A DNA stretch of 64,000 nucleotides from the IMG/VR virus record IMGVR_UViG_2671180747_000017; one strand, given 5' to 3'. Positions 54,001 to 57,000 of the stretch are shown piece after piece. Source of the DNA: a virus (Duplodnaviria > Heunggongvirae > Uroviricota > Caudoviricetes). Position numbers: made by a program. How positions within the stretch are numbered: position 1 is the stretch's first letter; each line of letters starts with the position of its first letter.

Positions 54001-57000
54001 AATGATTTCAGGTTGTATCGTGAAATTAGTGACGGAAAAAGCATCACGTACATGATCGCCGGGTTAAACAAAGAATATGGCGATGTGGTGGAGTCCGGAC
54101 TGCTTTTTGCTGATCCTGCCGTAGTGGATCGTGAAACTGACGAACTTATAGAAAAAGCAATTGCTTTCAAACTTGCGTATCGACAGCAATACCAACAAAA
54201 AGCTGGATGGAATTATGAGCCTTCTTTTTGCTGAACGCCCACTGGTTATAAACACACAGCTTGCGATGAAGATTGGCTTAAATGAAGCCATTGTGTTGCA
54301 GCAGTTGCATTACTGGTTGAGAGATACCAATTCCGGTATGGAATGTGATGGTGTTCGCTGGATTTACAACACAACGGAACAATGGCTGGAACAGTTCCCA
54401 TTCTGGTCAGAGTCAACGTTAAAGCGCGCGTTTGCAAGTCTGAAAACGCTGGGGCTTTTGCGTTGTGAAAAGCTCAATAAATCAAAGCGCGATATGACCA
54501 ATTTCTACACGATCAACTACGGGAGCGAGCTTTTAGATGATGGCAAATTGAGCGAATCCATCGGTTCAAAATGCGCCGCTCCATCAGGTCAAAATGACAC
54601 GATGGAAGAGGTCAAAATGAAACGCTCCATTGGTTCAAAACGATCCAATGTCATCGGGTCAAAATGGCCTGATGATCTTACAGAGAATACAACAGAGATT
54701 ACTACAGAGAATAAAAACACTTTTCGTCCGGAAGCTTCGCAACCGGACCCGCAGACGACTGAACAGGATTTTTTAACCCGGAACTCCGACGCGGTTGTGT
54801 TTAGTGCGAAAAAACGCCAGTGGGGTAGCAGGGAGGATTTGGCGTGTGCGCAGTGGATCTGGGGGCGGATCGTGGGCCTCTACGAACAGGCAGCCAGTGA
54901 TGATGGCGAGATCATGAGACCAAAAGAGCCTAACTGGACTGTCTGGGCCAATGACGTGCGCACAATGCGGATGCTGGATGGCAGAAGCCACAGACAAATT
55001 TGCGAAATGTTTGGTCGGGTTCAGCGAGATCCATTCTGGGTAAAAAACATCATGAGCCCGTCAAAGCTCCGCGAAAAATGGGACGAACTGGTCATCCGCC
55101 TGGGACGTTCACCTGTACAGCGTTGTGTTAATCATATTTCTGAACCGGATACAGAAATTCCGCCTGGTTTCAGAGGATAAGTGTTGATTTCAGGTCATGA
55201 GGTAATTTTAAGGGGGACTTGTGGCAAAAGTTTTTACACAAGAAGAGCGGGAAAAAATTAAAGGGCAGGTGGTGGAACTCGTGCGCCAGAGCGGTCGTGA
55301 GACGTTACGGCAACTGGAAGCTAAAACAGGTGCGACTAGATATCTGATGAGCGTTCTTGCCAGAGAGCAGGTAGCCAGTGGCGATGTATACAACTCCGGC
55401 TACGGGTTATTCCCGTCTGAACAGGCGCGTAAGGACTGGCAAAACGCCCGCAAAAAACTCTCGAGGGCAAAGGTGAAGAAACCTGCTGTGGTTGATCCGG
55501 ACCTTATCTGGTCATTACCTGACGGAGAAATACGCCGCTACGACAGTCGTCTAAACATAATCTGTCGCGAGTGCCGGAAGAGCGAAGTTATGCAGCGTGT
55601 TCTGACGTTTTATCAGGGGAATTATCGGGAGGTGATGCTGTGAGTACATCGGCTACCATTCTCGACATGTGCTGTGGCAGTCGCATGCTCTGGTTCGATA
55701 AGAATGACGAATGGTCGATATTTAGCGATATCAGGAAAGAGGAACATTCGCTATGTGATGGACGTCACCCGATTATTAATCCCGACATTATCGCTGATTT
55801 TCGTGCGCTGCCGTGGTTGTCTGCTTTGCATCAAAAGCAGACATTACCAGATTTAGACATCTGTTTCCGATAGCCCGTTCTGATGCTACACTTTTTGCTA
55901 TTTTCATGAACCTCATAAACACATTTATGACTGTTGCTGATTTCAAACGCCCCAAATTGGAGCTCCCAAACGGGGCAAAAAAACTATTACTGCACTCTTG
56001 CTGTGCTCCATGTTCCGGTGAAGTGATGGAGGCGCTTCAGGCCTCGGGAATCGACTACACCATCTTTTTCTACAACCCGAACATTCATCCTCAGAAAGAG
56101 TATTTAATTCGTAAGGATGAGAATATTCGCTTTGCTAAACAACACGGCGTGCCATTTATTGATGCTGATTACGACACAGACAACTGGTTTGAGCGAGCCA
56201 AAGGAATGGAATGGGAGCCTGAACGAGGGATCCGTTGTACCATGTGTTTTGACATGCGTTTTGAGCGGACTGCACTGTATGCCGCTGAAAATGGTTTCAG
56301 TGTGATCAGTAGCTCACTGGGCATTTCACGCTGGAAAAATATGCAGCAGGTTAACGACTGTGGACGGCGAGCCGTCGCGCATTATCCGGGCATGGTGTAC
56401 TGGGATTATAACTGGCGAAAACAGGGCGGCTCTTCCCGCATGATTGAAATCAGCAAGCGCGAACAATTCTATCAGCAGGAATATTGTGGCTGCGTGTATT
56501 CACTGCGCGATACCAATCTACACCGCAAATCTCAGGGACGCCCTCTAATCAAAATTGGTCAACTGCACTACGGTAAGGAAGGACAGGAATGATTTTATAT
56601 TATGCCAACGGAGCGTAGCAGTGTTTCTATATATAGTACGCCTACCTTAATTTTCAAATAATCATGATTAATGAGCAGGTCATCAGTGCAAGCAATGACC
56701 TGCTCATCTTGTTGAAATTAGAGGAAATCTTGCAGCCATGATATGGCTTAAAATAACGTTTGATTATTTTACCTGCTGTTTGTCCCTGGTTTAAAGTCGG
56801 TTGTCTGATTTGATTACGCGCAACTGACGCTTACGTATTGAAGTAACGAGCACGAAGACACATATTTATCAGTGCCTGTATACGTCAAGAGCAGGAGATT
56901 TATGTGCTGGTTCTCAAATGCACGCTGGCTATTGTGGCTGTAATGGCAATTTATTGTCTTGTTATTGTTCTTATGGATCACCTTTCTGATTGATTTCATA

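What the first reader, a model, noticed from the sequence alone, without database searches (positions are those of the whole stretch)
55640..56592. QueH-like (DUF208) gene next to a truncated SAM-methyltransferase-like ORF in the nin-like region
The 55927-56592 product carries the QueH-family motifs ([19 protein letters not shown], RCxMCFDMR, EYCGC). E. coli uses QueG for this tRNA step, so a prophage-borne QueH-like enzyme is accessory. Immediately upstream a GTGA-coupled 77-codon ORF with a motif-I-like ILDMCCGS stops early, as if an MTase gene had been displaced. Queuosine-pathway enzymes in phages are associated with 7-deazaguanine nucleic-acid modification.
Basis: partly seen in the sequence, partly recalled or inferred. 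Interest (0 to 1): 0.45.

Follow-up and report, generated by a model that had tools for sequence, protein, structure and literature searches.

The report
Prophage-borne spare queuosine tRNA reductase (QueH)
A lambda-like E. coli prophage carries an intact, well-conserved copy of QueH, the vitamin-B12-independent enzyme for the last step of queuosine tRNA modification; it sits on a small mobile cassette that overwrote most of a phage DNA methylase gene, and it is a known enzyme in a little-noticed place, not a new system.

Summary
The ORF at 55927-56592 is a full-length QueH: Pfam PF02677 E 1.7e-65, an AlphaFold model that superposes on T. maritima QueH (TM 0.92), and every family-invariant residue present. 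The 77-codon ORF at 55640-55873 is the first 58 codons of a common 162-aa prophage DNA methyltransferase, cut at 55812-55814.

queH lies on a ~790-bp cassette (55812-56598). That cassette occurs in 1008 of 5426 complete E. coli genomes, in several prophage contexts, in one isolated phage (HannyBb), and on IncF plasmids of Klebsiella and Salmonella. All 84 copies examined are intact, and dN/dS between the two alleles is 0.04. The closest relatives are ordinary chromosomal queH genes of Enterobacter, Erwinia and Proteus. A TG-extended -10 element travels with the cassette.

Every E. coli genome also carries cobalamin-dependent queG, so this is a second epoxyqueuosine reductase. It most likely acts as a B12-independent back-up on tRNA. 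The hint of 7-deazaguanine DNA modification is not supported: there is no DpdA/TGT and there are no preQ0 genes. RefSeq already names the gene QueH. PHROGs lists it as unknown function, and no paper I could search discusses it. Moderate-low interest.

The parts
55221..55643 (+). DUF977 / LygF ('Ren-like') gene. It is the usual left neighbour of the cassette, and its TGA overlaps the GTG of the next ORF.
   Evidence: Pfam PF06163 E 6.5e-29; phrog_142. It is the upstream neighbour in 64 of 84 loci.
55640..55873 (+). 77-codon ORF. Codons 1-58 (55640-55813) are the 5' remnant of a 162-aa orphan/type II-like DNA methyltransferase and keep motif I (ILDMCCGS). The last 19 codons read into cassette DNA and stop at TAG 55871-55873. 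It is a pseudogene.
   Evidence: PHROG DNA-MTase hits over residues 3-61, E 2.9e-28. Intact homologue L007:2992-3480 = PADLOC MTase_II, E 6.2e-73. RefSeq calls it 'methyltransferase, incomplete'. Base-by-base comparison.
55812..55814 (.). Recombination breakpoint. Homology to the methyltransferase gene ends here and homology to the queH cassette of other prophages begins (shared CGT).
   Evidence: Megablast of 84 loci: the left limit is 55812/55813 in 50 loci; 923 genomes match from query position 173 = window 55812.
55812..56598 (+). The mobile queH cassette: a 115-bp leader with a promoter-like element, the queH CDS, and 6 bp after the stop. The minimal shared core is 55857-56598.
   Evidence: Limits from 84 prophage loci. 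Flanks differ among loci. The same block is on IncF plasmids from window position ~55864.
55818..55843 (+). Perfect 10-bp inverted repeat with a 6-nt loop at the left edge of the cassette. No T-run follows. Function unknown, and only 8 of 10 pairs are kept in the ST131 allele.
   Evidence: RNA fold -18.4 kcal/mol, z -4.3. Allele comparison.
55864..55892 (+). Candidate promoter of queH: -35 TTTCCG (55864-55869), 17-nt spacer, TG-extended -10 TGCTACACT (55884-55892), 34 nt before the ATG.
   Evidence: TGCTACACT is at -43 in 83 of 84 cassette copies and in the plasmid copies. TGCTACACT or TGCTACCCT is at -40 and -42 upstream of chromosomal queH in Erwinia and Enterobacter, whose leaders otherwise do not align. 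The strict sigma-70 scan did not call it. Inference, not shown.
55927..56592 (+). queH CDS, 221 aa: epoxyqueuosine reductase, [4Fe-4S], cobalamin-independent. An in-frame ATG at 55906 is not conserved in plasmid copies.
   Evidence: Pfam E 1.7e-65. PDB 7LC5, E 5.4e-22. AF2 pLDDT 94; Foldseek TM 0.92, rmsd 1.2 A. Invariant residues. dN/dS 0.04. RefSeq WP_001595803.1 'QueH'. Start codon check.
56671..56707 (.). Perfect 13-bp inverted repeat 79 nt after the queH stop and outside the shared cassette. A possible weak, bidirectional terminator in this lineage's downstream spacer.
   Evidence: RNA fold -22 (+ strand) and -23.4 (- strand) kcal/mol. The terminator scan did not call it.

Best explanation
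The gene at 55927-56592 encodes a functional QueH, the [4Fe-4S], cobalamin-independent tRNA epoxyqueuosine(34) reductase. QueH converts epoxyqueuosine (oQ) to queuosine (Q) at the wobble position of tRNA-Asp, -Asn, -His and -Tyr. The gene was captured from an enterobacterial chromosome as a ~790-bp cassette together with its short promoter-bearing leader. It now circulates among Rac/Qin-type lambdoid prophages and IncF plasmids of Enterobacteriaceae. In this lineage it recombined into the early-right (nin-like) region at 55812-55814 and replaced codons 59-162 of an orphan DNA methyltransferase gene, leaving the 77-codon pseudo-ORF.

Every E. coli already has QueG, which needs cobalamin, and E. 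coli cannot make cobalamin de novo. The most likely benefit is therefore a B12-independent back-up that keeps tRNA fully matured to Q in the lysogen, in the way MetE backs up MetH. The gene would also be transcribed with the early-right operon on induction.

Shown here: family membership, intactness, purifying selection, cassette limits and mobility, co-occurrence with queG, and the methyltransferase truncation. Inferred: enzymatic activity in E. coli, promoter use, and the B12-related benefit.
For: Identity:
- Pfam QueH full length, E 1.7e-65.
- Sequence match to solved T. maritima QueH, E 5.4e-22.
- AF2 model pLDDT 94 superposes on 7LC5 with TM 0.92 and rmsd 1.2 A.
- All 15 columns invariant across 37 diverse QueH sequences are present: C25 C26 N52 E58 R62 E99 R103 C104 C107 K137 Q184 C187 G188 C189 S192.

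Orthology with housekeeping enzymes:
- 85-86% aa identity to Proteus and Erwinia queH and about 90% to Enterobacter queH, all in non-phage chromosomal contexts.

Selection:
- dN/dS 0.04 between the two E. coli alleles (36 synonymous, 7 non-synonymous differences).
- 84 of 84 copies are intact, with only 6 protein variants.

Mobility:
- Fixed cassette limits with varying neighbours.
- Present in 1008 of 5426 genomes, in isolated phage HannyBb, in 189 IMG/VR contigs and in 20 plasmids, mostly conjugative IncF.

Redundancy:
- queG is present in 5426 of 5426 genomes.

Cofactor logic:
- QueG is cobalamin-dependent (PMC5175355; Frey 1988, cited).
- QueH is cobalamin-independent (PMC5615194 citing Zallot 2017).

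Promoter:
- A conserved TGCTAC(A/C)CT lies at -40 to -43 in cassette, plasmid, Erwinia and Enterobacter leaders.

Methyltransferase truncation:
-.
Against: - No experiment here shows oQ-to-Q activity or expression in a lysogen.
- The generic sigma-70 scan finds no promoter in the leader, and there is no obvious Shine-Dalgarno sequence before the ATG.
- No fitness difference between oQ- and Q-tRNA is established in the papers I could read, so the selective advantage is conjectural.
- NCBIfam has no model that hits the protein. This is uninformative rather than contrary.
- The residue aligned with T. maritima D13, which was mutated in PDB 9DCO, is Cys29 here. Cys is the family norm: 36 of 37 sequences have it.
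Confidence: 0.8

Rival explanations
1. The QueH-like enzyme takes part in 7-deazaguanine modification of phage DNA.
For: Phages do use queuosine-pathway enzymes for DNA modification (PMC6884629). The gene sits next to the remnant of a DNA methyltransferase.
Against: Those systems need a DpdA/TGT-type transglycosylase and preQ0 synthesis genes. None is annotated in the prophage, in the rest of the window, or in HannyBb as far as its genome was read. The defining survey found no QueA/G/H in viruses. The protein is 85-90% identical to chromosomal tRNA enzymes. The cassette also lives on plasmids. No oQ-type base is known in DNA (my own knowledge).
Confidence: 0.03
2. The gene serves the phage rather than the host. 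Expressed from the early-right operon during lytic growth, it tunes decoding of NAU/NAC codons for phage protein synthesis.
For: It has the same orientation as, and lies inside, the pR-type early operon between the replication genes and Q. No strong terminator precedes it. Other phages carry tRNA genes, and ST131 prophages with queH carry tRNA-Ile and tRNA-Arg further downstream.
Against: The same cassette, with the same leader, is kept on conjugative plasmids that have no lytic cycle. A promoter-like element is conserved with it. The short lytic period gives little time to re-modify the tRNA pool (inference). This rival is not exclusive of the main explanation.
Confidence: 0.12
3. It is a neutral passenger or decaying remnant with no current function.
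For: It lies in a mosaic region full of pseudogenes and junk: the methyltransferase remnant here, and ydfA/ydfB pseudogenes in the same prophage. Its catalytic step is redundant with QueG.
Against: dN/dS is 0.04. All 84 of 84 copies are intact and no invariant residue is changed. It has spread to about 19% of complete E. coli genomes and to plasmids of other genera.
Confidence: 0.03
4. It is a QueH neo-functionalised for conflict. For example, it could change the Q/oQ state of tRNAs to alter sensitivity to anticodon nucleases, or act on another epoxide or nucleoside substrate as a defence or anti-defence factor.
For: It sits where lambdoid prophages keep exclusion and defence cargo: a Ren-like gene upstream, hok/sok or a Dcm-NgoMIV restriction-modification pair downstream in other copies. 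Plasmid copies lie among colicin-related and iron-uptake genes.
Against: There is no PADLOC hit. The sequence has not diverged from housekeeping orthologues, and the active-site residues are unchanged. There is no partner gene conserved with the cassette.
Confidence: 0.05

Closest known systems
QueH (DUF208, PF02677), e.g. Thermotoga maritima QueH (PDB 7LC5) and chromosomal queH of Enterobacter, Erwinia and Proteus
   Same: Same family, fold and conserved residues. 85-90% aa identity to the enterobacterial chromosomal enzymes. A similar -10 element lies upstream.
   Different: It is carried on prophages and plasmids in a species that already has QueG, rather than being the sole chromosomal oQ reductase. 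It has a ~25-residue C-terminal tail, shared with gammaproteobacterial orthologues but absent from the T. maritima enzyme.
QueG (E. coli b4166), the cobalamin- and [4Fe-4S]-dependent epoxyqueuosine reductase
   Same: It catalyses the same reaction, EC 1.17.99.6 (PMC5372724).
   Different: The fold and family are unrelated and it needs cobalamin. It is a core gene in 5426 of 5426 E. coli genomes, whereas queH is accessory.
Phage 7-deazaguanine DNA modification clusters (DpdA with FolE/QueD/QueE/QueC and amidotransferases)
   Same: They draw on the same overall pathway and are phage-borne.
   Different: Those clusters use the early (preQ0) half of the pathway plus a DNA transglycosylase and lack QueA/G/H. 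Here only the last tRNA-specific enzyme is present, with no DpdA.
Lambdoid 'morons' / auxiliary metabolic genes (independently transcribed cargo such as bor and lom)
   Same: It is a discrete insert with sharp limits, present in some and absent in other closely related prophages, and probably has its own promoter.
   Different: The promoter and terminator are not demonstrated. The identical cassette is shared with conjugative plasmids.
Small orphan DNA methyltransferase of Rac/Qin-type prophages (162 aa; PADLOC MTase_II / oMTase; phrog_954)
   Same: The 77-codon ORF keeps the N-terminal 58 residues, including motif I, and the translational coupling to the DUF977 gene.
   Different: It lacks the DPPH motif and everything after it, so it cannot be an active enzyme.

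Membership tests
QueH (PF02677, epoxyqueuosine reductase) | Full-length match to the family profile above the curated threshold | tested here: met
   E 1.7e-65, 220.8 bits against a cutoff of 23.5, profile positions 1-174 of 175
QueH (PF02677, epoxyqueuosine reductase) | Fold of the solved QueH structure | tested here: met
   AF2 model pLDDT 94, pTM 0.89. Foldseek top hits are T. maritima QueH entries, TM (target) 0.92, rmsd 1.2-1.3 A. The next family (TtuA) has TM 0.38.
QueH (PF02677, epoxyqueuosine reductase) | Conserved cysteines CCxxC ... CxxC ... CGC and other invariant residues. Assigning them to the [4Fe-4S] cluster and the adjacent site rests on my memory of the structure paper, which I could not open. 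| tested here: met
   C25 C26 C29 C104 C107 C187 C189, plus N52 E58 R62 E99 R103 K137 Q184 G188 S192, are present. They are invariant in 36-37 diverse homologues.
QueH (PF02677, epoxyqueuosine reductase) | Reduces oQ34 to Q34 in tRNA without cobalamin | not testable with these tools
   Inferred from 85-90% identity to chromosomal orthologues and from the family's characterisation as cited in PMC5615194.
Phage 7-deazaguanine DNA modification system | DpdA/TGT-type transglycosylase encoded by the phage | tested here: not met
   None is annotated in the window's two prophages or in the HannyBb genome as far as it was read, positions 1-40005 of 45272.
Phage 7-deazaguanine DNA modification system | preQ0 synthesis genes (FolE, QueD, QueE, QueC) in the phage | tested here: not met
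   None annotated. The survey of such phages found no QueH.
Class I SAM-dependent DNA methyltransferase (prophage 162-aa type) | SAM-binding motif I | tested here: met
   ILDMCCGS is retained. PHROG DNA-MTase hits cover residues 3-61.
Class I SAM-dependent DNA methyltransferase (prophage 162-aa type) | Catalytic DPPH motif and the C-terminal two-thirds of the protein | tested here: not met
   Homology stops at codon 58 (55813). The intact protein has DPPH at residues 70-73. RefSeq flags the ORF as incomplete.
Moron (independently expressed prophage cargo) | Discrete insert, variably present among related prophages | tested here: met
   Fixed limits at 55812/55857 and 56598, with at least 6 upstream and 4 downstream contexts. 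Related prophages carry the methyltransferase gene or nothing at this site.
Moron (independently expressed prophage cargo) | Own promoter and terminator | tested here: inconclusive
   A conserved TG-extended -10 is present, but the consensus scan is negative. The only terminator-like feature is a hairpin without a T-run, outside the cassette.

The most novel reading that the evidence does not exclude
Temperate phages and IncF plasmids of Enterobacteriaceae spread a self-expressed queH cassette that frees the final step of queuosine-tRNA synthesis from cobalamin. This would be a form of lysogenic (or plasmid) conversion of the host's tRNA modification state. It would pay off when B12 is scarce, or when the B12 receptor BtuB has been lost to escape BtuB-dependent colicins and phages. 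It would also overturn the published statement that viruses carry no Q-specific (QueA/QueG/QueH) genes.
Probability: 0.4. Interest if true: 0.55.

Novelty: new member of a known kind. Interest (0 to 1): 0.35.

Why it matters
The enzyme itself is ordinary. What is worth noting is where it is. About one complete E. coli genome in five, including ST131, O157:H7 and O111 strains, carries a second, cobalamin-independent epoxyqueuosine reductase on a prophage, and the same cassette rides on IncF plasmids in Klebsiella and Salmonella.

If it is active, the Q/oQ state of four tRNAs in these strains would no longer depend on B12 supply. That matters for work on queuosine, metal and B12 physiology, and codon-biased translation, which is mostly done in queH-free K-12.

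It also corrects two annotation gaps. PHROGs, and therefore Pharokka-type phage annotation, lists the family as 'unknown function'. The reference survey of deazaguanine genes in viruses reported no QueH.

Tried and rejected
- Riboswitch or other RNA element upstream of queH. Rfam at gathering threshold over the whole window, and at E<=1 on 55600-57000, gave nothing relevant.
- Standard sigma-70 and terminator scans of 55100-57300. Nothing in the leader and no terminator after queH.
- NCBIfam. No model hits QueH, the methyltransferase remnant or DUF977.
- PADLOC. No defence model hits QueH.
- Other phages with QueH. tblastn of 50,697 phage records gave 25 hits, but only HannyBb is a credible phage. 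'Acinetobacter phage MD-2021a' is a bacterial contig. I did not inspect the rest: short unannotated 'Bacteriophage sp.' fragments from human fecal samples and Staphylococcus/Listeria records at 31-51% identity.
- Donor of the leader. The 115-bp leader does not align with Erwinia, Proteus or Enterobacter upstream DNA. Nucleotide identity of 77-80% is confined to the CDS. Only the -10 element is shared.
- Literature. The primary QueH papers (Zallot 2017, Li 2021), Frey 1988, Miles 2011 and the 2024 MMBR review are not held. Ten full-text searches found no paper on prophage- or plasmid-borne QueH in E. coli.
- A locus tag in O157:H7 Sakai, to look for expression data. Prophage Sp11 has no queH, and ECs_2199 is unrelated.
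I repeated it without that row.
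Full report
**1. What is in the sequence**

The window matches E. coli S19-651 (NZ_CP075852.1) at 99.96-99.98% identity, apart from one extra 6.6-kb segment. The finding lies in a Qin/Rac-type lambdoid prophage integrated next to rspB. The gene order is:

- integrase and excisionase;
- exonuclease, dicB, and DicF RNA;
- repressor and cro-like gene;
- YdaT-family gene and an O-like gene (54161-55180);
- DUF977/LygF gene (55221-55643);
- the two ORFs of the finding;
- hokD/sok and rem;
- DUF968 gene and the Q antiterminator (59208-59990);
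- lysis and cold-shock genes, then the terminase.

'Nin-like region' is therefore a fair description.

**2. The QueH gene**

The evidence for family membership is:

- Pfam PF02677 (QueH) over essentially the whole profile, E 1.7e-65.
- A match to the solved Thermotoga maritima QueH, E 5.4e-22.
- An AlphaFold2 model built on 36 homologues, mean pLDDT 94. It superposes on 7LC5 with target-normalised TM 0.92 and rmsd 1.2 A. The next-best family (TtuA-type PP-loop sulfurtransferases) scores far lower.
- In an alignment with 36 homologues down to 33% identity, including the T. maritima enzyme, 15 columns are invariant. All are present here: C25 C26 N52 E58 R62 E99 R103 C104 C107 K137 Q184 C187 G188 C189 S192.
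- Cys29 aligns with T. maritima Asp13 (mutated in PDB 9DCO). Cys is the norm at that column in every other sequence.

RefSeq already names the product 'epoxyqueuosine reductase QueH', WP_001595803.1. PHROGs lists the family as phrog_3217 'unknown function'. In the isolated phage HannyBb the identical gene is annotated 'hypothetical protein'.

**3. The short upstream ORF**

The 77-codon ORF (55640-55873) starts at a GTG overlapping the TGA of the DUF977 gene. It has no Pfam hit but matches PHROG DNA-methyltransferase families over residues 3-61, E 2.9e-28.

Related prophages have an intact 162-codon gene at this position (L007:2992-3480), with motif I (ILDMCCGS) and a DPPH motif. That protein matches PADLOC MTase_II at E 6.2e-73. 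The intact gene is found with at least 80% coverage in 853 complete E. coli genomes, typically right after the DUF977 gene.

Base-by-base comparison shows that the window follows the methyltransferase gene up to 55813. From 55812 onward it follows the sequence that precedes queH in ST131 and O157:H7 prophages. So codons 59-162 were replaced, and the frame then runs 19 codons into foreign DNA to a TAG at 55871-55873.

**4. A mobile cassette**

- Megablast of the region against 5426 complete E. coli genomes finds queH in 1008 of them.
- 72 genomes match at 99% or more and share the methyltransferase-remnant context.
- 923 genomes match at 90-95%, and in these the similarity starts at window 55812 and ends at about 56598.
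- In 84 fetched loci (IMG/VR prophage contigs plus reference loci), the left limit is 55812/55813 in 50 and 55857 in 18. The right limit is 56598 in all loci that do not share the whole neighbourhood.
- Upstream neighbours are the DUF977 gene (64 loci), an unrelated 137-aa ORF (14), or IS elements.
- Downstream neighbours are hok/sok (56), this window's spacer (16), a Dcm-NgoMIV restriction-modification pair (9), or an IS (examples).
- The same block, from about window 55864 to 56598, is on 20 plasmids at 84-93% identity. Most are conjugative IncF plasmids of Klebsiella pneumoniae, plus Salmonella, Enterobacter and E. coli. There it lies among IS elements, colicin-related genes and fec iron-uptake genes.
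- Among 50,697 phage records, only HannyBb, a 45-kb lambdoid phage, credibly carries it. The 78%-identical 'Acinetobacter phage' records are bacterial chromosome contigs.

**5. Origin and selection**

The nearest non-mobile relatives are ordinary chromosomal genes:

- Enterobacter spp., about 90% aa and 79.6% nt identity, between a GNAT acetyltransferase gene and csbD;
- Erwinia, 86% aa, between purL and glrK;
- Proteus, 85% aa, near aceBA-metA;
- also Gibbsiella, Photorhabdus, Providencia and Ewingella.

The two E. coli alleles differ by 36 synonymous and 7 non-synonymous changes, giving dN/dS 0.04. All 84 copies are intact, with only six protein variants, and none touches an invariant column. 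This is a working gene under purifying selection, not a relic.

**6. Expression (inferred)**

No riboswitch or other Rfam element is present, and the generic promoter scan is negative.

The leader does contain TGCTACACT (55884-55892), a TG-extended -10, with TTTCCG 17 nt upstream. This 9-mer is at -43 in 83 of 84 cassette copies and in the plasmid copies. TGCTACACT and TGCTACCCT occur at -40 and -42 upstream of the chromosomal Erwinia and Enterobacter genes, whose leaders otherwise do not align. Other orthologues have TATAAT-like elements about 35-55 nt before the ATG by my reading of the printed leaders.

By my arithmetic, an 8-base pattern falling in a 5-nt window by chance has probability about 8e-5 per lineage. 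I therefore think queH brought its own promoter and can be expressed in the repressed prophage. It would also be read through from the early-right operon on induction, since it has the same orientation and no terminator precedes it. This needs experimental confirmation.

The in-frame ATG at 55906 used in the HannyBb annotation is not conserved in plasmid copies, so 55927 is the likely start.

**7. What it does**

QueH catalyses the last step of queuosine synthesis on tRNA, oQ34 to Q34 (PMC5372724). queG, the non-homologous enzyme for the same step, is present in all 5426 complete E. coli genomes, so every queH carrier has both.

QueG is a cobalamin/[4Fe-4S] enzyme (PMC5175355). [quoted passage not shown] QueH is described as cobalamin-independent (PMC5615194 citing Zallot 2017). 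E. coli does not synthesise cobalamin de novo (established knowledge).

The simplest rationale is a B12-independent back-up, analogous to MetE and MetH. The presence of the cassette on plasmids as well as prophages points to a benefit for the cell rather than a phage-specific task. This physiological step is inference. I put it at roughly even odds, while the enzyme assignment itself is about 0.8-0.9.

**8. What it is not**

The DNA-modification idea is not supported.

- Phage 7-deazaguanine systems rest on DpdA plus preQ0 genes, and the survey that defined them states that no QueA, QueG or QueH homologues were found in viruses (PMC6884629).
- No such genes are annotated in either prophage of the window or in HannyBb, of which I read positions 1-40005 of 45272.
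- There is no PADLOC hit that would suggest a defence role.

**9. Novelty**

The gene is a typical QueH and is already named so in RefSeq. I found no paper in the searchable library that mentions QueH on E. coli prophages or on plasmids. I could not open the primary QueH papers, so prior mention there cannot be excluded.

I rate it a new member of a known kind, in a carrier context that seems unremarked. Interest is moderate-low, rising if B12-independent conversion of tRNA modification by mobile elements is shown experimentally.

Noticed in passing
window 33622-40254: A ~6.6-kb element is inserted in ynfE and is absent from the otherwise 99.96-99.98% identical strain S19-651. It encodes a 527-aa tyrosine recombinase (33684-35267), a KilA-N protein (36790-37548, with a weak PADLOC PDC-S22 hit), and two ORFs (37814-38305, 38381-39376) with no Pfam, PHROG or PADLOC match. 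It may be a small integrative or satellite-like island.
   Followed up: partly
window 1-~33000: A second, unrelated prophage with an N4-gp56-type major capsid protein, a Gp38-like receptor-recognising protein and an 8.4-kb LPD38-domain gene (from the S19-651 annotation). There are two Rfam sRNA-Xcc1 hits at 29082-29167 and 29618-29702 on the minus strand.
   Followed up: no
window 51780-51831, 57036-57210, 60505-60928, 63406-63790: Qin-type RNA features in the queH prophage: DicF antisense RNA, sok antitoxin RNA with hokD, and two cspA-type thermoregulator leaders ahead of the cspB- and cspI-like genes.
   Followed up: no
window 56671-56707: A perfect 13-bp inverted repeat in the spacer after queH, folding at about -22 kcal/mol on either strand. 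It lies in a 440-bp AT-rich stretch (39% GC) found only in this cassette context (16 of 82 loci).
   Followed up: partly
L012 (CAKLQH020000001.1) and related records in the phage collection: Records named 'Acinetobacter phage MD-2021a' (328-379 kb) are bacterial chromosome contigs with soxR, cynX and tadA around a chromosomal queH that is labelled 'putative prophage protein'. The label probably propagated from E. coli prophage annotation.
   Followed up: yes
L102 (K. pneumoniae p90CM2-172k) and L103 (Salmonella pCFSAN024441_02): On IncF plasmids the queH cassette lies among IS elements, TonB/TolA-fragment (colicin-type) genes and fec iron-dicitrate transport genes. Whether the association with iron-uptake cargo is meaningful for an Fe-S enzyme was not examined.
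   Followed up: no
L005 7967-9977 (E. coli O157:H7 Z1831): In some O157:H7 prophages a Dcm-type cytosine methyltransferase plus an NgoMIV-family restriction endonuclease sit immediately downstream of queH, in place of hok/sok.
   Followed up: no
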